From positions 26,846,001 to 26,910,000 of the forward strand of contig OX597824.1 of NCBI GenBank assembly GCA_951406725.2: a stretch of DNA of 64,000 nucleotides, given 5' to 3'. The notes beneath the pieces are model-generated. The model was given only the letters and a program-made list of their open reading frames with translations, did not search any database and had not been told where the DNA came from. Both the position numbers and the translations under genes were made by a program. This document shows, in pieces, positions 4,785 through 62,923 of the stretch. Numbering within the stretch: the stretch's first letter is position 1; each line of letters opens with the position of its first letter. Source of the stretch: Octopus vulgaris. Taxonomy: Eukaryota.

Positions 4785-4818
4785 TATATATATACGTATA
4801 TATATATATATATATATA

Positions 4819-5250
4819 TATTGGTGAATTGAAGAAATGGAGCTGAACGAAGATTGAACAGAAATCGTTTTATTTCATTCTACACGTGGAGCCTAGTTCG
4901 ATTTGTTTTGCTCCGCCTCTGTTCTGTTTTTGTTTTTTCCAACGGATTTCCTATTTCTTCCTGAAGAGAAAGACACAATATGGTCTCATTATTCAATCGG
5001 ATTTTGGTAAATTGTGCCTTTCGAAACACGTGTAGAATGAAATAAAACGATTTCTGTTCAATCTTCGTTCAGCTCCATTTCTTCAATTCACCAATAATAT
5101 TTTAATTTCAATTATCCGCACCAACGCACGGTTGCAACACCATATGGTTGTACCTCCAACCGTACTGTCTTCTGCTGTGATTTTTGCTACCAAGGTATCG
5201 GTTAAACTTTTGATTAATCTGCTACAAGATTATTCATCTTTCTTTTTCAC

Positions 5251-5252
<2 letters not shown>
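4819..5252 (+). mobile_element. Non-autonomous PLE-derived/retrozyme-like element with a 70-bp perfect inverted repeat, inserted in (TA)n
   Basis: Arms 4819-4888 and 5027-5096 are exact reverse complements; hammerhead inside; (TA)n on both sides. Confidence 0.8.
4952..5044 (+). ncRNA. Minimal type-I hammerhead ribozyme, intact core
   Basis: CTGAAGA 4961-67; stem II GAAAGACACAAT/ATTGTGCCTTTC (11/12 bp); GAAAC-ACGT-GTA 5023-34; stem I TATTTC-TTC/GAA-t-GAAATA. Predicted cut after 5034. Confidence 0.88.
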
Positions 5253-10764: not shown

Positions 10765-11820
10765 AAAGCGGCTAGCTGGCAGACTTGTCAGCACGCTGGA
10801 TAAAATGCTTAGTGATATGTTGCCAGTCGATAAATTAAGTACCAGTTAAGCACTGGGGGTCAATGTAATCGACTTAATCCGTTCGTCTGTCCTTGTTTGT
10901 CCCCTCTATGTATAGCCCCTTGTGGGCAATAAAGAAATAAGAATCGTTAGCACGCCGGGTGAAATGCTCAGCGATATTTCGTCAGTCACTGCGATCTGAG
11001 TTCAAATTCCGCCGAGGTCGACTTTACCTGTCAGCCCTTCAGGGTTGATAAATTAAGTACCAACTGAGTACTGGGGGTCTATATAATCAACGCACCCCTT
11101 TCCTTCAAATTTCAGGCTTTGTGCCTATAATAGAAAGGATTATTATGGTATGCGGTTAAGGCAGCGAGCCGGCAGAATCGTTAGCACGCCGGGCGAAATG
11201 CTTAGCGGTATTTCGTCTGCCGTTACGTCGTGAGTTCAAATTCCGCTGAGGTCGACTTTGGCTTTTATCCTTTCGGGGTCGATTAAATAAATGAAATAAG
11301 TACCAGTTACGCACTGGGGTCGATATAATCGACTTAATACCTATGTCTGTCATTGTTTGTCCTCTCTGTTTAGCCCCTTGTGGGTAATAATGAAATAGGT
11401 ATTTCGTCTGCTGCCACGTTCTGAGTTCAAACTCCGCCGAGGTCGACATTGCTTTTTATCTTTCGGGTTCGATTAAATAAATTAAATAAGTACCAGTTAC
11501 GCACTGGAGTCGATATAATCGACTTAATCCGTTTGTCTATCCTTGTTTGTCCTCTCTGTGTTTAGCCCCTATTGGGTAGTAAAGAAATAGGTATTTCGTC
11601 TGCCGCTACGTTCTGAGTTCAAACTCCGCCGAAGTCGACTTTGCCTTTCATCCTTTCGGGGTCGATTAAATAAGTACCTGTTACACACTGGGGTCGATAT
11701 AATCGAATTAATACGTTTGTCTGTCCTTGTTTGTTCCCTCTATGTTTAGCCCCTTGTGGGTAGTAAAACAAATAAGAATCGTTAGCATGTCGAGCAAAAA
11801 GCTTCGCGGTAATTCATTCA
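10765..11820 (+). mobile_element. Tandem array of SINE family A units
   Basis: About five head-to-tail units of roughly 190-230 bp with recurrent junctions at about 10940, 11398, 11590 and 11775. Confidence 0.92.
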
Positions 11821-17461: not shown

Positions 17462-18285
17462 TAAGGCGGCGAGCTTGCAGAAACGTTAGCACTCCGGGAG
17501 AAATGCTTAGCGGTATTTCGTCTGTCTTTACGTTCTGAGTTCAAATTCCCTCGAGGTCGACTTTGCCTTTCATCCTTTCAGGGTCGATTAAATAAGTACC
17601 AGTTACGCACTGGGGTCGATATAATCGACTTAATCCATTTCTCAGTCCTTGTTTATCCTCTCTGTGTTTAGCCCCTTGTGGGTAGTAAAGAAACAGGTAT
17701 TTCGTCCGTCTTTACGTTCTGAGTTCAAATTCCGCCGAGGTCGACTTTGCTTTTCATCCTTTCGGCGTCGATTAAATAAGTACCAGTTACACACTGGGAT
17801 CGATATAATCGACTTAGTCCGTTTGTCTGTCCTTGTGTGTCTCCTCTGTGTTTAGCCCCTTGTGGGCAATAAAGAAATAGCTATTTCGTCTGCCGTTACG
17901 TTCTGAGTTCAAATTCCACCGAGGTCGACTTTACCTTTCATCGTTTCGGGGTCGATAAATTAAGTCCCAGCTACGCACTGGAGTCGATGTAATCGACTTA
18001 ATTCCTTTGTCTGTCCTTGTCTGTCCCCTCTATGTTTAGTCCCTTTTGGGCAGTAAAGAAATAAGAAACGTTAGCTCGCCGGGCGAAATGCGTAGCCGTA
18101 TTTCGTCTGCCGTTACGTTCTGAGTTCATGTTCCGCCGAGGTCGACTTTGCCTTTCATCGTTTCGGGGTCGATAAATTAAGTACGAGTTACACACTGGGG
18201 TCGATGTAATCGACTTAATCCGTTTGTCTGTCCTTGTTTGACCCCTCTGTGTTTAGCCCCTTGTGGGTAGTAAATAAATAAATAA
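17462..18285 (+). mobile_element. Tandem array of four SINE family A units
   Basis: Junctions at about 17696, 17880 and 18064. Confidence 0.93.
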
Positions 18286-18289
18286 AAAT

Positions 18290-18374
<85 letters not shown>

Positions 18375-18772
18375 CATTATTATTATTATAATTATTTAGC
18401 CTCGGGTTCATCCTGATCGATCAGATATCTGATCATCTTTTTAGTTTTATTCACACAAGGTACAAGTATGCTTCTGTGGTTACGCAATATGTTTTGAAAT
18501 TACTTGATTTCGGTTTCATTCTTGTCGTGTGGCATCTTGAGCAAGTATCTTCTACTATAGCGTCGGGTCGAACAATGCCTTGTAAGCAAATTTGGGGGAT
18601 AAAAACTGTGTGGAAGCCCGTTGTATATATGTATGTATACGTGTGTTTGTGTGTGTAAGCGTGTGTGCGTGGGTGAATATGTGTGTATGTGTCTTTGCGT
18701 TTGTGTTTGCCCCCCCCCCCCCCCCACCGAGGCTTGATGATCGGTGTTATTTCATTTATGTCCCTGCAACCT

Positions 18773-19188
18773 ATTTCTTTATTACCCACAAGGGGCTAAA
18801 CACAGAGGAGACAAACAAGGACAGACATAGGTATTACGTCGATTACATCGACCCAAGTGCGTAACTGGTGCTTAATTTATCGACCCCGAAAGGACGAAAG
18901 GCAAAGTCGACCTCGGCGGAATTTGAACTCACAACGTAATGGCAGACGAAATACCTATTTCTTTACTACCCACAAGGGGCTAAACACAGAGGGGACAGAC
19001 AAGGACAGACTTAGGTATTAAGTCGATTACCTCGACCCCAGTGCGTAACTGGTACTTAATTTATCGACCCCGAAAGGACGAAAGGCAAAGTCGACCTCGG
19101 CGGAATTTGAACTCACAACGTAACGGCAGACGAAATACCGCTAAGCATTTCGTCAGGCGTGCTAACGTTTCAGCCAGCTCGCCGCCTT
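18773..19188 (-). mobile_element. Family A dimer inserted into a family B SINE (18460-19330, +)
   Basis: Family B 5' part ends at 'tccctgcaaccta' and resumes at 'aacctagcgtttcagc' after the insert. Confidence 0.88.
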
Positions 19189-22356: not shown

Positions 22357-22380
22357 GTTTTCATGATTTTTGCTGCTTTT

Positions 22381-23024
22381 CTCGGAATTTAGAAAATCCT
22401 CAGAACTTCCGAGGAAGTTTTCGACCAAATTTCCCGGAAGTAAGAAAATCATCGGAACTTCCCAGGAAGTTGTCGACGAAAGTTTCCGGATGTTAGAAAA
22501 TCCTCGGAACTTCCCAGGAAGTTTTCGAACAAAATTTACGGAAATTAGAAATCATCGGAACTTCCGTGGAAGTTTTCGACCAAATTCCCCTGACGTTAGA
22601 AAATCCTCGGAACTTCCCAGGAAGTTTTCGGCGAAAGTTACCGGACTTTAGAAGATCCTCGGAACTTCCCACTAAGTTTCGACCAAATTTCCGGACGTTA
22701 GAAAATCCTCGCAACTTCCCAGGAAGTTTTCGACCAAATTTCCAGGAAGTTAGAAAATTCACGTAACCGCCCAGGAATTTTTCGACGAAACGTCCCAGGA
22801 AATTTTCGATCAAATTTCCCGGAAGTTATGAAATCCTCGGAACTTCTCAGGAAGTTTGCGACGAAAGTTTCTGGACGTTAAAAAATCCTCGGAAACTCCC
22901 AGGAAGTTTTCGACCAAATTTCCAAAAATCCTCGAAACTTCCCATGAATTTTTCGATCAAAGTTCCCTGAAGTTAGAAAATCCTCGGAACCTCCCAGGAA
23001 GTTTTCGTACAAAGTTCCCGGAAA
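22381..23024. repeat. ~52-bp minisatellite, about 12 units
   Basis: Consensus ccggaagttagaaaatcctcggaacttcccaggaagttttcgaccaaatttc. Confidence 0.93.
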
Positions 23025-33926: not shown

Positions 33927-34263
33927 AGGTAAAGAATCCCTTCTGTCATGAATGAATATGAGATTGCACTTAGAAAGTTCCCCTCCGAGGCATAAGTCCG
34001 TGCAAAGTTGTTTGTGGAAGGCCGGCAGTCGCCCATACACACCAGCCTCCACACTCCACGCCACCGATGTTATCCAAGGTAAGAGCAAAGGCCGATACAG
34101 CTTGATACCAGTGACGTTACAACTCATTTCTACAGCTGATCGAACTGGAGCAACGTGAAATAAAGTGTCTTGCTCAAGAACACAGCACATAGCCCAGTCC
34201 GGGAATCGAACTCACTACCTCATGATTGGTGGACCTGATGGTCTAACCGCTGAGCCATGCGCA
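33927..34263 (-). mobile_element. SINE family D
   Basis: Reverse complement of 20843-21177. Confidence 0.88.
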
Positions 34264-34267
34264 TATA

Positions 34268-34823
34268 TTGGGTTGTCCGGAAAGTTCATAGCGATTTTTA
34301 AAGGAAAGAAAAAGGTCAATAAATACTTGCCACAATCAACCAAATATGAATCATGTTGCTGCACAATGCGTCTCCATCTTTCCTTTAACTTGAAAATACC
34401 CTCTTCAAAGAATTGATGTGGTTTCATGGCAAGGAATTCATCAGGGTATCTTTTTACGTCATCCAAGGAATTGAATTTTTTCCCATTAAGACTATTCTGC
34501 AGAGACCTGAATAAGGGAAAATCCGAAGAGCAATATCTGGTAAATATGGAGGGTGGTGTAACACATCCCAGCCGAGCTGCAGCAGTTTTTGTCTGGTTCC
34601 CAAAGCATCAAGTGCCGCAAACGAACTTTCCTATCTTCCATTTTAAAGGGTTACAGAATTAACACAGGTTATAGGAACATAAACCTTCTTCCACGAAAAG
34701 ATAGCTTAAACTGTGCTCTAAATGGAGGTGTAGTCAAATCCTATTTTATGGACTCAACCATGTTCTAAAATAAGTCGAAATGTAAGCTACTATAAATCGG
34801 CACGAACTTTCCGGACAACCCAA
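34268..34823 (-). mobile_element. Internally deleted mariner element
   Basis: TIRs ttgggttgtccggaaagttc / gaactttccggacaacccaa, TA TSD, transposase C-terminus DDVKRY.DEFLA.KP.QFFEEGIFKLKERWRRIV. Confidence 0.92.
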
Positions 34824-37199: not shown

Positions 37200-37780
37200 A
37201 GGTTATGTGTCGTCTGTCTTTACGTTCTGAGTTCAAATTCGCCGAGGTCGACTTTGTCATTCATCCTTTCGGGGTCGATAAACAAAGTAACAGTTGCCTA
37301 CCAGGGTCGATCGAATCGACTGGCCCACCTCCCCAAAATTTCGGCCCTTGTGCCTAGAGTAGAAAAGAATAATAATAATAAAGCAAGCTGGCAGAAACTT
37401 TAGCACTCCGGGCTGAATGCTTAGCGTTATTTCGTCCGCCGCTACGTTCTGAGTTCAAATTCCGCCGAGGTCGACTTTGCCTTTCATCCTTTCGGGGTCG
37501 ATTAAATAAGCACCAGTTACGCACTGGGGTCGATATAATCGACTTAATCCGTTTGTCTGTCCTTCTTTGTCCTCTCTGTGTTTAGCCCCTTGTGGGTAGT
37601 AAAGAAATAGGTATTTCGTCTGTCATTACGTTCTGAGTTCAAATTCTGCCGAGGTCGACTTTACCTTTCATCCTTCGGGGTCGATAAACTAAGTACCAGT
37701 TACGTACTGGGGTCGATCTAATCGACTGATCTTCTCCCCACAAAATTTCGGGCCTGGTGCCTAGAGTAGAAAAGAATATT
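37200..37780 (+). mobile_element. Cluster/array of SINE family A
   Basis: Three units; recurrent junction at about 37610. Confidence 0.9.
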
Positions 37781-41669: not shown

Positions 41670-41899
41670 AAGGCGGCGAGCTGGCAGAAACGTTAGCGCG
41701 CCGGGCGAAATGCTTAGCGGTATTTCCTCTGTCGTTACGTTGTGAGTTCAAATTCCGCCGAGGTCGACTTTGCCTTTCATCCTTTCGGGGTCGATAAATT
41801 AAGTACCAGTTACCCACTGGGGTCGATGTGATCGACTTAATCCCTTTGTCTGTCCTTGTTTGTCCCCTCTATGTTTAGCCCCTTGTGGGTAGTAAAGAA

Positions 41900-41900
<1 letters not shown>
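41670..41900 (+). mobile_element. SINE family A, full length
   Basis: Matches 5904-6135. Confidence 0.93.
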
Positions 41901-41934
<34 letters not shown>

Positions 41935-42040
41935 TGTATGTATGTATGTATGTATGTATGTATGTATGTATGTATGCATGTATGTATGTATCTATCTATC
42001 TATCAATCAAGCCATCCCTCTATCTATCTGTGTGTATCTC

Positions 42041-42151
<111 letters not shown>

Positions 42152-42169
42152 GTACGTTTATGTGTTTCG

Positions 42170-42435
42170 TTTTAAGGATTCTTGATGTGAAACCGTGTGT
42201 TGAAATAAATATTGTTATATTCCGGGATGGTATTTTACTTTTTTTTTTTCGCCAAATAAACACATACATTACATTTTCGTTCAGAGTTATTAATTACATT
42301 ATTTACAATATTTACATTTGACGGATATTTGTCATCGTCTTGTTTGTTGTTATTTACAACGTTTCGGCTGATATACCCTCCAGTCTTCATCAGGTGTCTT
42401 GAGGAAATTTCGAACATGGGTTCTCATTCTTAAGG
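42170..42435 (-). mobile_element. PLE-like 3' end: hammerhead (42350-42398) followed by the shared terminal module
   Basis: Minus strand CTGATGA-A-GACTG-gagggtatat-CAGCC-GAAAC-GTT-GTA, then 'ttcaacacacggtttcacatcaagaatcc'. Confidence 0.68.
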
Positions 42436-42861: not shown

Positions 42862-43000
42862 TATCTGTGTGCCTGTGTGAAACCCTAAAACTCGAGAACT
42901 ACCAACCGAATTCATTCAAAGTTTACATATGCACCTTGGGCAAGTGTCTTCTACTATAGCCTCGAGCCGACCAAAGCCTGGTGAGTGGATTTGGTAGATG

Positions 43001-43722
43001 GAAAATTCAAATATATGTGTATATTGGCAGGGCTGGCCGGCTACCTAGCAGGCCAGCCCTGCCAATATACACATATATTTGAATTTTATCTGACTCCTCA
43101 GATTTTTTGAATGCTGGACTACTGGTTTTAAATTGATATTAAAATTAATATTAATTTATCTCCCTCAATTTTTAAATATTTAAATAAATACGTTCCCTAG
43201 TAGTAAGCTTTACCCGCAGTGAATTATTCACTGCAGCCCTTCGCTTCAGGAGTCTCTTAGCGCGCCGGAACCAAGACATTTGAAATTTTATTCCCGATGT
43301 AATCAGTAAGACTAAGCACGTGTCTGTCTTGACACAGAGAGCTGGGGTTAGTCTTGCGGCTTGCATCTCGAGGACCGAATGTACTGAAGAAGTCACGGAC
43401 ACTTGAATTATGCAAGTAATTCTTTTGTTAAGACCGAAACCGAGGTATGCATTTAAGTCTGTTTTTTATTTAATTTTTCATATGTCCTGCCCGCCAAATT
43501 TGGTTCTGGTGTTCGCTGAATTCTTCCTCTAGAGAATTTCCCTTGTAGTTTGATCGTTGATGATCTATTTCTAGCATTCTGGCCGGCTACCTAGCAGGCC
43601 AGCCCTGCCAATATACACATATATTTGAATTTTCTCTGACTCCTCAGATTTTTTGAATGCTGGACTACTGGTTTTAAATTGATATTAAAATTAATATTAA
43701 TTTATCTCCCTCAATTTTTAAA

Positions 43723-43727
<5 letters not shown>
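43001..43727 (+). mobile_element. Retrozyme-like element: 546-bp unit, 1.27-mer partial tandem with inverted 5' cap
   Basis: 43033-43171 is repeated at 43579-43727; 43001-43038 is an inverted copy of 43051-43087; no ORF; one hammerhead. Confidence 0.85.
43378..43453 (+). ncRNA. Type-I hammerhead ribozyme
   Basis: aatgta-CTGAAGA-aGTC...GACc-GAAAC-CGAG-GTA-tgcatt; stem I is 6 bp; predicted cut after 43447. Confidence 0.8.
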
Positions 43728-43757
<30 letters not shown>

Positions 43758-43761
43758 TGTT

Positions 43762-43809
<48 letters not shown>

Positions 43810-43844
43810 CACAAACACGCATATGCATATATATATAAATATAT

Positions 43845-44021
43845 ATTTCTTTACTACCCACAAGTGGCTACATACAGAGGGGATAAACAAGGACAGACAA
43901 ACGGATTAAGTCGATTACATCGACCCCAGTGCGTAACTGGTACTTAATTTATCGACCCCGAAAGGATGAAAGGCAAAGTCGACCTCGGCGGAATTTGAAC
44001 TCAGAACGTAACGGCAGACGA
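43845..44021 (-). mobile_element. SINE family A, 5'-truncated
   Basis: Reverse complement of family A. Confidence 0.9.
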
Positions 44022-44998
44022 ATATATATATATTTATATATATATATAAATATATTTATATTAATATATATATACATGTATTTATCTATATATGTGTGTG
44101 TGTGTTTGTGTGTATGCGTGTGCATGTGTGTGAATGCACGTGTGTGTGTGTGAGCGTTTTGATAGAGTGTGTACGTGTGTGTATGTGAGAAAGAGAGAGA
44201 GAGAGAGTGAGAGAGAGAGTGATCGTCCGTGTATGCGCTTCTGTATTGTGAGGAAATTTTTTTCTTGCTGTTTATACATTCTAACAGAATCACGTGTTCA
44301 GCGCAAAACGTGTTGTAATGGCGACAATGGAGATGGGAAAACCTCAAAAAGAATGGTTTCTGAAACAGGTAAATGGTGAGAAAATTTCGGGTATGGTTTA
44401 GTCGATATCATCGATTCCATTAAGGTTGCTTTATTTTATAGACCCACGGAGAGATGACAAGCAAAGTTGACCTGAGCAATATTTGAACTCAGAACGCGAA
44501 GAGCCGCCATAAATACTGTTATATATTTTTACCCGAAGTTTTAACGATTCTCATTGCTTACAACCTTGGAAAAATAGTAATACACACATATAGAGAGACA
44601 TTGATAATTTATAAACACACACGCGCACACACATATAATATATATACATATATACTTCTCCCTGTGTGTAATATATTTATGGATTTATTTATGTGTGTAT
44701 ATGTATATATATATAAATTACATATATATACATATATATACAAATTACATATATATATATATGCATATATATATAAATTATATATATATATAATTTATAT
44801 ATATTTATAATTTATATATATATAAGTATACATATATATTTACATATGCATATATATACAAGCACATATATATCTATCTATATATATATATATATATATT
44901 ACACACAGAGAGAAATATATATGTATATATATTATATGTGTGTGCGTGTGTGTGTATGTATGTATGTTTCCATGCATATGTACATACTTATATATACG

Positions 44999-45540: not shown

Positions 45541-45855
45541 TCTCCTTTAAGAATCATTGCACTCAAAGTTTCCGAGAAACCAGTCTCCGAGAAAGCTATA
45601 GGATGTGGCACAAGTAGATAACTCTGAGAATATATTCGCATTTTAGGCAGAATGCCGGTCCGCCACAAGACTGCTCAATTTTAATAGCTGCGGGGACTCT
45701 CCTTTGAGAATCATTGCACACATAGTTTCCGAGAAACCAGTCTCCGAGAAAGCTATAGGATGTGGCACAAGTAGATAGCTCTGAAAATATATTCGCATTT
45801 TAGGCAGAATGCCGGTCCATCACAAGATTGCCCATTTTTAACAACTGCGGGGACT
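45541..45855. repeat. 157-bp tandem duplication
   Basis: Units start at 45541 and 45698. Confidence 0.92.
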
Positions 45856-46466: not shown

Positions 46467-47000
46467 AGGGTGCAGAGAATATATTGTAGTCTAAATTACA
46501 CACAAAGTGAAAATAACGCTGAGATCTCATTTTAAGAGATATATTTACCAACATTAAATAAAAATGTCTTGAAATACTAAAGAGTAAATTTATTCAATAA
46601 ATTCGCCATTGGACGACTTCGGAATCTCATGCATCTCTTCTGGATATTCTCCTTGTTTAAGTTGGTGAATGCTGCCATAATGCTGGCCTTCGGTTCATCT
46701 TTGGTATTACAAGGGCTTGCGCCCCACACATATTAATCAAGGGGGTTGCAGTCTGGGGAATTAGGTAGCCAGATGTTAGGGGTGATATGGTCGCAGAAAT
46801 TGTCTGACAGCCATGACTGGGTTCTCCCGCTTGTGAGGCATGGTGCAGAGTCCTGTTGCCAGCTATAGGGTGTTCCAGCAGCCACCCTCTTGAGCCAGGG
46901 CAGTCCCACCTCCTCAAGGCACTTGATGTAGGCCTCCGTATTGAATCTGCGGCTGTATGAGTAGATGAGGTATAACGTCGCCATCACTAGTAGGACAAAC
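46467..47000 (-). mobile_element. maT (DD37D) Tc1/mariner relic
   Basis: QQDSAPCLTS...WLPNSPDCNPLD with 37 residues between D2 and D3; TA-CAGGGTG terminus. Confidence 0.88.
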
Positions 47001-47402
47001 ATTAAGAGCCGTTAGGCCAAGACGAATTGTAATGGGTAAAGCCCGGAAGAAATTCCTTAAGGAAATGGAGTAAATAGAAAGGTAAAGAGTAGAAGAGATA
47101 AAATGTCGGCTGGCGAAAGAAACGACGTTTAGCCCGGTGGCCATCCCCACCAGAAAAGACAGGGGTGAAAGAAATGGCCTGTAGTCACGTGTGAGCAAGA
47201 TACAGAGGGGGAAGAGGACAAGAGAGGATGAGGGAAGGAAACAAAGTGTGTGATGAGGAGAAGGGAGAAGGAACGAAAGATAGTAGGGAGTAGGAGAAAG
47301 ACAGACAGAAGACAGCAAAGAAGGAGGAGAAGAATCGGAAAATATATAGGATTGTAGAGGCATTGAGAGATAGAAAGGAAACATAGTGTAGAGTTGCAGA
47401 AA

Positions 47403-53557: not shown

Positions 53558-54720
53558 ATTGCGTCATCCCGTAAATAATGCATTTATTTTTATAAAACTT
53601 TTATTTTTCAGAATTAAGATAAAGAAATGTCTTTTTTCATCTAAAATATACTCTCCTTTATTTTTTACAGTGCTCTTCCATCTATCTGCTAGACTTGCAA
53701 GGTCCCTCTTCCAAAATCCACTTGTCAGTGACGAAAAATATTCATCCACTGCTGTTCTGATCTCGTTTACAGAAATCATATTTTTTCCGTCAAAATGATT
53801 TTGAAGATTGCAGAATAATGGATGGTCAGATGAGGAAGTGTCCGGCGAATATAGTGGGTGGGACATTGTTTTCCATTCAAACTGCTCCAGCCTTTGGAAT
53901 GTCATCCTCACTGTATGTGGTCGAGCATTATCCTGATGAAAGAACACCTTTGGTTGTTTTTTTTTTTTTCTAGCGGTGACTTAATCCGCTCAAGCTGCTT
54001 GCTGTAGATTTCATTTGTTATCGTGTTATTTGGATTTAAAAATTCAATGTGAACTAAACCTTTCATATCCCATCAAACAGATAACAACACCTTATGCAGG
54101 CGAAGACCTTCTTTCGCCTGGGGTACCGGTGTTTCTCCTTTCCGTACCCAATGTCTTCGGCGCTTGACATTTTTATAGAGAGCCCATTTCTCGTCACCAG
54201 TAACTATTCGGCCCCAAAAGGGTCCATTCGTGTGGCGTGACAGCAAAGAAGAGCACACATTCACTCTTCAATTGGACTCAGAAAGTTTGTGAGGAACACG
54301 TTGACTGAATTTGTTGACTTTTCTGATGGCTGAAGGACCAAATCCAAGCTTCTCTGCTTGTTCCTCAACAGTTACAATGGGGTTTAGTTCCACCAGAGTT
54401 TGCAGGACGTATTCGTCGAACCATACAGACCTTCCAGGACGAGGTTCGTCTTCTAGGATGCAGTTTTCGGCTCAGAATATCTGGAACCACCGTCGACACC
54501 GTCTTATGCTCATTGTCCGATCCCCATATACAGCATTAATATTCCTCACACTTTCTGTTGTGTTGTTGCCTTCATTGAACTCATAAAGCACTTCCATTAT
54601 AGCTTTGAAAACATAACTGTTAAAATCAAACTGCACTCTTCAAAATTTGCACTAAGAATAAGTTTAAGGTAGATTTACTACCTGCTTTTATAGCAAGTTG
54701 ATGCAGGTTGATTACCACGT
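53558..54720 (-). pseudogene. Mariner (DD34D-type) transposase pseudogene
   Basis: RIVTGDEKW, HQDNARPH and HPLYSPD motifs in separate frames; multiple frameshifts. Confidence 0.92.
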
Positions 54721-56284: not shown

Positions 56285-57075
56285 GTCTAAATTACGTACA
56301 AAATGAAAATAACGCTGACATCTCATTTTAAACGATATATTTACCAACATTAAATAAAAAATATCTTGAAATACTAAAGAGTAAATTTATTCAATAAAAT
56401 CGCCATTGGCTTAAACCACGGCCTCTAGACGACTTCGGAATCTTTTGCAACTCTTCTGGATAGTCTCCTTGTTGAAGTTGGTGAATGCTGCCATAGTCCT
56501 TGTCTTCGGGTCATCTTTGGTGTTACAAGGAGTTTGGTTGGTCTCTCGCTCGACTGCGCCCCACACATAATAATTAAGTGAGTTGCTGTTTGGGGACAGA
56601 TGTTAGGGGTGATATGGTTGCATAAATTGTCTGACATCCATATTTGGATCCTCCTGCTTGTGTGGCATTGTGCAGATTCCTGTTGTCCGAGATAAGGTCT
56701 TTCATTAGTCACCCTCTTCATCCAGAGCAGCACTACCTCCTCCAGGGACTTGATGTAGGCCTCTGTGTTGAGTGCGAGGCCATGTGGGAAGATGAATGGA
56801 TGCATAACGTCTCCGTCACTAGTGATCGCTCCAAACACGTAGGAAGTTGACTGGATGTTTGATTTTTTATCACTCCCGGTACATGCGCTGTCCTCAGATT
56901 GACATCTAAACACTCTGAAACGTTCATAGTGGACCTTCCGGCGCGAATGCCAAGCAGTACAGCATGTCGTTTCCAAATATCTGGCAGAGTGAATTACATC
57001 ATGTTACTGACCCTACTATACTGTGTAGTCGACAAATACAATGGGCATGCACGAAATTAAAAATATAAAAATGTG
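56285..57075 (-). mobile_element. Second maT (DD37D) relic
   Basis: Collinear with 46490-47000; VFGAITSDGDVMHPFIFPHGL.LNTEAYIK.LEEVV. Confidence 0.88.
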
Positions 57076-58256: not shown

Positions 58257-58292
<36 letters not shown>

Positions 58293-58295
<3 letters not shown>

Positions 58296-58475
58296 TTAAA
58301 GCATACAGAAAATTCAACAAAGTCTGTTACTCTGGGTTTCTCGTTGCCGTTCATCAGACAGTTTTTGCTAGAATGGAATCGATATATCGGTTCCATTCTA
58401 GTAAAAACTGTCTGATGAACGGCAACGAGAAACTCAGAGTAACAGATTTTGTTGAATTTTCTGCTGCTTTAAATA
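58293..58475. ncRNA. ~180-bp palindrome carrying back-to-back hammerheads (58324-58361 minus, 58408-58445 plus)
   Basis: Centre gatatatc 58381-88; plus copy ctgt-CTGATGA-ACG-GCAA-CGA-GAAAC-TCAGA-GTA-acag. Confidence 0.8.
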
Positions 58476-58549
58476 AAGCATATTACTCTACCACTGGTAT
58501 TTGAGTACTCTTTTTTTTCCACCTTGTTTCACATTTATGTGTTTACTCC

Positions 58550-58592
<43 letters not shown>

Positions 58593-61489: not shown

Positions 61490-62247
61490 TTGAATATTGA
61501 TGTGAATTCGTGTGTTGAAGTAGATATTGTTGTATTTGGGGACGGTCATGTTGCCAGTTTAGCCAATAAAACACACGCACTATATATTTTAACTTCTATG
61601 TTGTTGAGTGAGGCCCCGAGTTCCTGCTCGGCGTAAAATCTTGTCCACACATAGAACAGACGCAATGCTTAAACAAATTACGGAAGTTACACATCTAACA
61701 GAAGATAAACCTAGCCTGATTAGAAAACTAGAATGGAACACTAGCGCACACACCCCAGCACACCACAACCTACGCCAGAATATGATCCTCATAAACTGAT
61801 AAGAATATGAATATAATACAATTCACAGATAAATAAATGGAATTAACTATATACATAAACAAATTAAATTAAATTAAATTAATACAAAAAAAATATAGAA
61901 AGAAAAGTAAAAGTAAATAGATATAAACAATTGAATAAAATAAATTAAATTAAATGAACGTGTATAAACAGAAGATACTGATAATGCAGGCACCCCCCCA
62001 CACACACACACTTACTAAACATAGATACATACAACAGGAATACAAAATGCCAGATCATTAGTAAGGAGGGACACACATAAAAGAAAGAAATCAAAGGACC
62101 ACTGATGAAGTCACAGAAGTGTGACGAAAGAACTCTCGCCGAAATACAATTAATATAAAATAAAGCTGAAGCAATTGAACGCCAAATATACAGTGCGTGT
62201 GATTTTATTGGCTAAACTGGCAACATAACCATCCCCAAATACAATAT
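61490..62247 (+). mobile_element. 5'-truncated PLE: inverted terminal copy + GIY-YIG C-terminus + 3' repeat with hammerhead (62102-62137)
   Basis: KILSTHRTDAMLKQITEV.HL...KPSLIRKLEW resembles the PLE endonuclease end; CTGATGA-A-GTCAC-agaagt-GTGAC-GAAA-GAACT-CTC; IR 61527-61589 / 62186-62247. Confidence 0.78.
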
Positions 62248-62741: not shown

Positions 62742-62748
<7 letters not shown>

Positions 62749-62923
62749 TTGTATACTGTCAACTTAACCTGACAGTCCTGTAAGGGAATTACCACACCGC
62801 TGTTTAGCCCTAGGAAGGATCGACATCGACGCTTCTTGTCGGCCTTGCTTCCTAGGGCTAAACAGCGGTGGTGTAATTCCCTTACGGGACTGTCACGTCA
62901 AGTTGACAGTATACAACCACTCT
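62742..62923. mobile_element. Fold-back MITE-like element (76-bp arms); single decayed arm at 60475-60550
   Basis: agagtggttgtatactgtcaactt...ccctaggaag / cttcctaggg...aagttgacagtatacaaccactct. Confidence 0.8.

What the first reader, a model, noticed from the sequence alone, without database searches (positions are those of the whole stretch)
43001..43727. 546-nt non-coding monomer integrated as a 1.27-mer: signature of a circular or multimeric RNA template
The sequence runs past its own start. A terminal direct repeat of about 140-150 bp (period 546, about one mismatch) brackets a single near-intact hammerhead, and a 38-bp inverted cap joins a truncated SINE through GAAA microhomology. There is no ORF. 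This fits non-LTR retrozymes, whose ribozyme-cut monomers circularise and are reverse-transcribed for more than one round, though it is longer than typical examples.
Basis: partly seen in the sequence, partly recalled or inferred. Interest (0 to 1): 0.82.

Follow-up and report, generated by a model that had tools for sequence, protein, structure and literature searches.

The report
Hammerhead retrozyme with Penelope-type insertion scars
A many-copy, non-coding 546-base repeat that carries a predicted self-cutting hammerhead RNA was likely pasted into this animal genome by the enzymes of a Penelope-like jumping gene; this kind of element (a retrozyme) is already known, and whether this one forms RNA circles is untested.

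Summary
In detail: a 150-bp direct repeat (period 546, one mismatch), a 38-bp fold-back cap sharing GAAA with a truncated SINE-like repeat, one type I hammerhead (cut 43447/43448), no credible ORF. Public contigs show a multi-copy family with diverged subfamilies whose unit is 546 nt head to tail; no coding Penelope junction appeared among the rows shown. It is a new member of the animal non-LTR retrozymes, i.e. non-autonomous Penelope-like elements. But the 1.27-mer is no special signature of a circle. Partial tandem, palindrome-bounded repeat, inverted head, microhomology junction and microsatellite target are standard Penelope insertion marks, and two unrelated stubs in this window show some of them. 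Contigs from other copies also stop at about the same 3' end, against permuted starts. The template must have held more than one unit; a ribozyme-cut, religated circle (0.45) narrowly leads an uncut read-through RNA (0.38). The value is modest: a retrozyme copy carrying nearly the full Penelope insertion anatomy, which makes the 2014 circle-template hypothesis testable by counting n+0.27-mers in an assembly.

The parts
42931..43004 (+). Truncated SINE-like dispersed repeat (left flank, target)
   Evidence: 8 other copies in the window; they continue about 17 nt further, 7 of 8 into a TA/TATG-rich tract. 'SINE' is a recalled label.
43001..43004 (+). GAAA microhomology shared by flank and cap
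43001..43038 (-). Inverted 38-bp cap (short head-to-head inverted pLTR)
   Evidence: reverse complement of 43051-43088, outer base matches the second copy's letter
43033..43056 (+). GC-rich palindrome/hairpin whose first base is the first base of the direct repeat; turnaround point of the cap
   Evidence: sequence; predicted fold
43033..43182 (+). Upstream 150-bp repeat (5'-truncated second round, pLTR); private change at 43088
   Evidence: contigs covering 43634 show no other letter there (tables 3, 8)
43183..43728 (+). One complete 546-nt non-coding unit
   Evidence: period 546; junction 43182/43183 bridged by contigs of near-identical and of diverged copies
43372..43460 (+). Type I hammerhead motif: stem I 7 bp plus 4-bp extension, extra A after the core, long stem II capped by a GNRA loop, short stem III; predicted cut 43447/43448
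   Evidence: activity not tested
43579..43728 (+). Downstream 150-bp repeat; its end is the element's 3' end, the inferred start of reverse transcription, 281 nt after the cut site
   Evidence: contigs of other copies stop at the equivalent place (tables 7, 8)
43729..43756 (.). (TA)14 tract, inferred target; no target-site duplication of 5 nt or more

Best explanation
This is one copy of a many-copy, non-coding 546-base repeat with a predicted type I hammerhead, likely a retrozyme that a Penelope-like element's enzymes copied from an RNA circle into a TA microsatellite. Shown: the repeats, cap, palindrome, microhomology, hammerhead motif, lack of coding and the family in public contigs. Inferred steps: (1) a master locus with two or more units is transcribed on +, cut at the hammerheads and ligated to a 546-nt circle; (2) a Penelope GIY-YIG endonuclease nicks the TA tract and the RT starts at a preferred internal site (43728), 281 nt after the cut site; (3) RT crosses the ligated cut site and starts a second round; (4) at the GC-rich palindrome (43033-43056) the cDNA folds back on the 6-bp stem, or meets a second cDNA primed from the other target strand, giving the 38-bp inverted cap; (5) the cap joins the left flank through GAAA, probably losing about 17 nt or more of target, with no duplication. 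This copy has one hammerhead, so it could not release a unit-length RNA by itself. Identity as a Penelope-mobilised non-coding family (this plus rival 1) is about 0.83; the circle as template is the open part.
For: Repeat, cap, microhomology. [quoted passage not shown] Family: 17 of 24 listed runs hold half or more of the 49 sampled words, in 7 studies and 3 coded organisms, one of which may be the window's source. In one search, 1091 records of run X1 were laid, 312 of them under 95% alike; all four runs read T at 43360 where this copy has C. Diverged copies bridge 43182/43183 (X1 record 1, 7 differences in 82; X5 record 23, 14 in 126), so the head-to-tail junction is a family trait. X5 record 22 and X17 record 12 run through the cut site. 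Listed changes in the hammerhead fit its fold: loop GCAA to GUAA (43413), A-U to G-U (43433), G-U to G-C in stem I (one X1 loose end); no substitution listed in the core. With an internal 3' end 281 nt after the cut, a cut RNA can only give this insert as a circle or by a jump (inference). Circles are shown for coral, mussel and axolotl retrozymes. PLE marks in print.
Against: No circle, cleavage or transcript was shown here. Contig closure proves nothing by itself: this one locus holds 546 of 546 circle 31-mers. Frangieh et al. found hammerhead cutting dispensable and uncut RNA the dominant substrate for a PLE protein in vitro, and no reads ending at the cut site. Li et al. saw cleavage in 1 of 9 retrozyme dimers tested. 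Rfam finds no hammerhead; the active fold is 1.7 kcal/mol above the local minimum and is not formed in the circular minimum-energy fold. The family's variants do not protect the predicted circular fold: 10 of 35 break pairs against 11.3 +/- 2.3 expected. Zero core changes among 35 variant sites is not significant (under 1 expected). No two-hammerhead master locus and no partner PLE could be looked for (no genome). One low-depth X4 contig has an extra A in the core GAAA.
Confidence: 0.45

Rival explanations
1. Same non-autonomous Penelope-dependent family, but copied from an uncut linear RNA: a read-through of a head-to-tail array, or of a 1.27-mer whose RNA starts at the palindrome. RT starts at the internal site and runs off or folds back at the palindrome, so a 1.27-mer regenerates itself without any circle.
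For: Partial tandems with palindrome-bounded pLTRs are standard and can be active in coding PLEs. Uncut RNA was the main substrate in vitro. The repeat starts exactly at the first base of the palindrome, as a fixed RNA 5' end would give. 3' ends of other copies recur at 43186-43190.
Against: It does not explain why the hammerhead core is kept in diverged copies (few shown). The unit folds more stably than 60 of 60 shuffles (z -4.6), as retrozyme circles do, though 3 of 14 control stretches of the window reach z -4.0 or lower.
Confidence: 0.38
2. A 5'-truncated end of a long coding Penelope-like element whose RT jumped back to the RNA 3' end once, so the 546 period is an accident of this locus.
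For: All terminal marks are those of coding PLEs; the window has other PLE-type stubs. Only 13 of 76 loose ends were shown, so a coding junction could be hidden.
Against: The 43182/43183 junction is present in diverged copies (X1 record 1, X5 record 23) and near-identical ones (X5 record 22, X17 record 10). No RT or GIY-YIG remnant in six read-through frames. The loose ends shown are diverged homologues or microsatellites.
Confidence: 0.08
3. A non-autonomous Helentron (HINE/DINE-1-like), moved as DNA by rolling circle, with the cap as a 5' inverted repeat and a duplicated core.
For: 5' hairpin, stem-loops near the 3' end, microsatellite neighbours and internal duplication resemble HINE descriptions.
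Against: No inverted pair of 10-15 nt (up to 1 mismatch) between the first 40 and last 90 nt; no TT target, 5' end cuts into another repeat. A hammerhead is not among the HINE features in the passages read.
Confidence: 0.04
4. A local DNA duplication or assembly artefact produced the repeat and the cap.
For: Assembly reads for this locus were not examined; the cap and flanks were not part of the stretch laid, and no strand-switch joint at the palindrome was listed.
Against: The two repeats differ at one base and the cap carries the family letter; the head-to-tail junction exists in other copies; two unrelated elements in the window have palindrome-centred inverted heads.
Confidence: 0.03

Closest known systems
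Animal non-LTR retrozymes (Cervera & de la Pena 2020, PMC7229834, parts 2-4 of 6 and passages read, supplement not readable; Li, Clavereau & Pollet 2026, bioRxiv 10.64898/2026.07.22.740005, parts 1-3 of 5 read)
   Same: Non-coding, <50% GC (39%) unit with one type I hammerhead, head-to-tail junctions, multi-copy, predicted self-paired fold; size within the 51-972 bp of Li et al.
   Different: Longer than the 150-450 bp of Cervera 2020; this copy has one hammerhead (Li et al. call only two-hammerhead repeats active); extra A and long stem II resemble PLE-type hammerheads; inverted cap, palindrome boundary and fixed internal 3' end are not mentioned in the parts read ('inverted' 0 times in the 2020 main text); no TSD; circles not shown.
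Insertion structure of endonuclease-bearing Penelope-like elements (Arkhipova et al. 2013, PMC3846280, abstract and passages; Craig et al. 2021, PMC8557442, passages; Frangieh et al. 2024, PMC11167929, parts 1-2 of 4; Cervera & de la Pena 2014, PMC4209133, parts 1-2 of 4)
   Same: Partial tandem making pLTRs, palindrome at the pLTR 5' end and at the inverted junction, head-to-head inverted 5' copy, microhomology 5' junction without TSD, microsatellite/AT-rich target, internal RT start downstream of a hammerhead. The circle-template idea for more-than-unit copies was proposed in the 2014 paper.
   Different: No RT/EN ORF; the hammerhead lies 131 nt upstream of the repeated part rather than inside it; the inverted copy is 94 nt short of the 3' end rather than 30-40 nt.
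Non-autonomous Chlamys PLEs such as MRC1 (Craig et al. 2021; PMC9940879, passages)
   Same: Non-coding elements that produce pLTRs and head-to-tail insertions using a partner PLE.
   Different: Green algal; Chlamys generally lack canonical hammerheads.
pDo500 hammerhead satellite of cave crickets (PMC2837043, abstract only)
   Same: Non-coding animal repeat with one hammerhead per unit; about 500 bp by its name (size recalled).
   Different: Satellite arrays rather than a dispersed 1.27-mer with Penelope-type ends.

Membership tests
Animal non-LTR retrozyme | Type I hammerhead motif in the unit | tested here: met
   Structured scan, unique in window, 0 of 30 shuffles; Rfam did not detect it
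Animal non-LTR retrozyme | Non-coding, short, GC <50% | tested here: met
   546 nt, 39% GC, no credible ORF or Pfam hit above cut-off
Animal non-LTR retrozyme | Multi-copy family with head-to-tail unit junction | tested here: met
   Diverged and near-identical contigs bridge the junction
Animal non-LTR retrozyme | Tandem loci with two or more hammerheads | tested here: inconclusive
   This copy has one; contigs cannot tell arrays from 1.27-mers; no genome held
Animal non-LTR retrozyme | Self-cleavage and circular RNA in vivo | not testable with these tools
   Needs bench work or raw RNA reads; only contigs were served
Penelope-like element insertion | Partial tandem (pLTR) with palindrome at its 5' end | tested here: met
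   described
Penelope-like element insertion | Head-to-head inverted 5' copy; microhomology junction or TSD | tested here: met
   38-bp cap, GAAA, no TSD of 5 nt or more
Penelope-like element insertion | Preferred 3' end, microsatellite/AT-rich target | tested here: met
   (TA)14 here; contigs in X17, X5, X4 stop at 43186-43190, the X17 and X5 ones running into TA or microsatellite-like letters; only part of the ends was shown
Penelope-like element insertion | 30-40 bp optional tail | tested here: inconclusive
   Cap is 94 nt short of the 3' end; end distribution not resolved
Autonomous Penelope-like element | RT plus GIY-YIG ORF | tested here: not met
Non-autonomous derivative of a named PLE | Sequence similarity to a partner's pLTR | not testable with these tools
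   No genome or repeat library; no similarity beyond short AT-rich words to four hammerhead-like stubs in the window
HINE / DINE-1 (Helentron) | 12-15 bp subterminal inverted repeats and TT target | tested here: not met
   against the definition

The most novel reading that the evidence does not exclude
A retrozyme family whose dispersed copies form a ladder of n+0.27-mers, all starting at one internal RT site and stopping at one palindrome, each insertion with identical units: a genomic record that a Penelope reverse transcriptase copies ribozyme-made RNA circles round and round, the step proposed in 2014 and not shown in the papers read.
Probability: 0.3. Interest if true: 0.62.

Novelty: new member of a known kind. 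Interest (0 to 1): 0.4.

Why it matters
The link between animal retrozymes and Penelope-like elements rests, in the papers read, on shared hammerheads, co-occurrence and pLTR similarity. This copy carries nearly the whole Penelope insertion anatomy on a purely non-coding unit, which is structural support that Penelope enzymes move retrozymes. Because the unit is short, young and has preferred ends, it offers a cheap test of whether the template is a circle or an uncut multimer, an open point of the Penelope cycle. As an element type it is not new.

Tried and rejected
No whole genome is held, so copies, multimers, empty sites and partner PLEs could not be counted. No RNA holder listed: several runs are only guessed to be RNA; this says nothing on expression. 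Contig depth was compared with expectation: X17 repeat part/core 2.4-2.8 (2.0 if all copies were 1.27-mers, 1 if long arrays), X5 0.96 (1.5 expected for 1.27-mers); the tool says contig depth cannot rank parts and X5's RNA status is a guess, so this is not counted as evidence. No strand-switch joint at the palindrome was listed in 4 of 4 runs; contigs drop such paths, so whether other copies have caps is open. Rfam on the whole window gave only below-threshold microsatellite matches among the 150 of 360 rows shown and no hammerhead for the element. Exact patterns found nothing in metagenome contigs or viral contigs. No tRNA in the window. Variant-versus-fold test negative. Antisense 97-aa frame is chance level. 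Earlier-finding look-ups by sequence, place and one word set were empty. Searches for a cephalopod retrozyme in print: one search gave only Craig 2021; none of the 15 listed of 4262 papers held 'retrozyme'; one search found no 'octopus' or 'cephalopod' in the 2020 main text, whose supplement could not be read and may list such families; bioRxiv supplements (Li 2026) are closed.

Full report
Setting. The window is AT-rich, microsatellite-rich animal-type DNA full of dispersed repeats. The flanking repeats remind me of octopus SINEs; that label is recalled and was not tested. No whole genome is held.

Observation. 43033-43182 and 43579-43728 are a 150-bp direct repeat at period 546 with one mismatch, so the insert is 696 nt or 1.27 units. 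43001-43038 is an inverted copy of 43051-43088; its outermost base matches the letter of the second repeat (C43634), not the first (A43088), and contigs covering 43634 show no other letter, so A43088 is a later private change. The direct repeat begins at the first base of a 24-nt GC-rich palindrome, which is also where the cap turns round. GAAA at 43001-43004 belongs both to the cap and to a SINE-like repeat whose 8 other window copies continue for about 17 nt, 7 of them into a TA-rich tract; the insert ends in (TA)14 and no duplication of 5 nt or more was found. A target deletion of about 17 nt is therefore possible, but the sequence after the TA run does not look like the usual continuation, so it may be larger.

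Hammerhead. A type I motif lies on + at 43372-43460 with the predicted cut at 43447/43448. It was the only hit of a structured scan of the window, and 30 shuffled windows gave none. It has a 7-bp stem I with a 4-bp extension, an extra A after the core (a mark of PLE hammerheads in Cervera & de la Pena 2014), a weak base of stem II, a long extension ending in a GNRA loop, and a 2-3 bp stem III. Rfam missed it, possibly because of the long stem II (inference). The active fold is 1.7 kcal/mol above the local minimum. The unit has no credible ORF. As a circle it folds better than 60 of 60 shuffles (z -4.6), but 3 of 14 control stretches reach z -4.0 or lower, and family variants break predicted pairs as often as chance (10 of 35), so the global fold is weak evidence.

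Family. 20 of 24 listed runs hold the unit or part of it, 17 with half the words or more, in three coded organisms. Four runs were laid on 43100-43645 (contigs only; 13 of 76 loose ends and 29 of 1143 pieces shown). This locus alone contains every 31-mer of the 546 circle, so closure of contigs into a ring (X4, X5, X17) is not itself proof of anything. What counts is variation: X1 laid 1091 records, 312 under 95% alike; all four runs differ from this copy at 43360; and diverged records bridge the unit junction 43182/43183 (X1 record 1, X5 record 23). So the 546-nt head-to-tail unit is a family property, not a one-off jump in a truncated coding element. The main subfamily is nearly identical to this copy (0-1 differences in several contigs of 100-375 nt), so the copy is young. 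Contigs with further differences stop at 43186-43190 in X17, X5 and X4, the first two running into TA or microsatellite-like letters: the 3' end is preferred, not permuted. One other end type (43624, into TA, 3 contigs of X1) was listed. The few listed hammerhead changes fit its fold, but their number is too small to be significant.

Context in print. Arkhipova et al. 2013 describe pLTRs with palindromes at the 5' end, head-to-head inverted copies with palindromes at the junction read as self-priming, and 5' junctions by microhomology without TSD. Craig et al. 2021 add partial tandems, inverted 5' copies, microsatellite bias and non-autonomous families with pLTRs. Frangieh et al. 2024 show internal RT starts downstream of the hammerhead, nicking and extension on both target strands, and no need for cleavage in vitro. 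Cervera & de la Pena proposed circles as templates for more-than-unit PLE copies in 2014 and showed circles for retrozymes in 2020. Li et al. 2026 place retrozymes (51-972 bp) as non-autonomous PLE derivatives. In the window, two unrelated stubs (4814-5252, 58285-58551) have TA flanks, an inverted head turning at a palindrome and a hammerhead-like motif that did not pass my strict scan, so the cap is a general Penelope mark here.

Mechanism. The RT most likely started at the preferred 3' end in the TA tract, copied 281 nt to the cut site, went through it, finished the unit and 150 nt more, and turned at the palindrome, by fold-back or by meeting a second cDNA primed from the left flank through GAAA; the sequence cannot tell these apart. 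Crossing the cut site requires a religated circle, an uncut longer RNA or a jump. I put the circle at 0.45 and the uncut RNA at 0.38. The copy itself has one hammerhead and could not release a monomer.

Verdict. Real, correctly described, and a new member of a known kind: a retrozyme-type non-autonomous Penelope parasite. I found no report of it in the searches made, with supplements unseen. Earlier AI notes of this scan describe similar Penelope-marked non-coding inserts in other animals; they are leads, not support, and they lower the surprise. Interest 0.4; the useful part is the n+0.27-mer test of the circle model.

Noticed in passing
window 4814-5252: Penelope-type stub between TA tracts: 75-bp inverted head (4814-4888 vs 5027-5100) turning at a 6-bp palindrome that is also the stem III of a hammerhead-like motif at 4961-5034 (motif did not pass my strict scan).
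   Followed up: partly
window 58285-58551: Fold-back stub with about 100-bp arms centred on a 20-nt imperfect palindrome (58384/58385), minimal hammerhead-like motif at 58412 mirrored at 58357, about 70-nt 3' extension, TA tracts at both ends.
   Followed up: partly
window 42150-42430 (- strand): Penelope-like 3' end with a hammerhead-like motif at 42393 next to an (AAT)n tract, about 600 bp left of the finding; no similarity to the 546 unit beyond short words.
   Followed up: partly
window 62102-62150: Decayed hammerhead-like motif with an extra A after the core, similar in its first 17 nt to the element's motif.
   Followed up: no
window 62742-62923: Fold-back with 76-bp arms and a 30-nt loop next to a (GA)n tract; no hammerhead core seen.
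   Followed up: no
window 11157-11786, 17462-18359, 18769-19139, 37210-37778; 41724-41977 vs 43769-44022: A second SINE-like repeat forms head-to-tail arrays with a period near 184 bp; two copies flank the finding in inverted orientation.
   Followed up: no
window 45541-45855 and 22378-23023: A 157-bp tandem dimer (92% alike) and a minisatellite-like array.
   Followed up: no
window 34215-34607, 46733-47011, 53564-53980, 56425-57003: Stop-free frames that look by eye like decayed Tc1/mariner transposase pieces (motifs recalled, not searched).
   Followed up: no
43577-43601: A second subfamily has a differently paired version of the GC-rich palindrome (17 X1 contigs, also X4 and X5); whether its copies turn round at the same place is unknown.
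   Followed up: no
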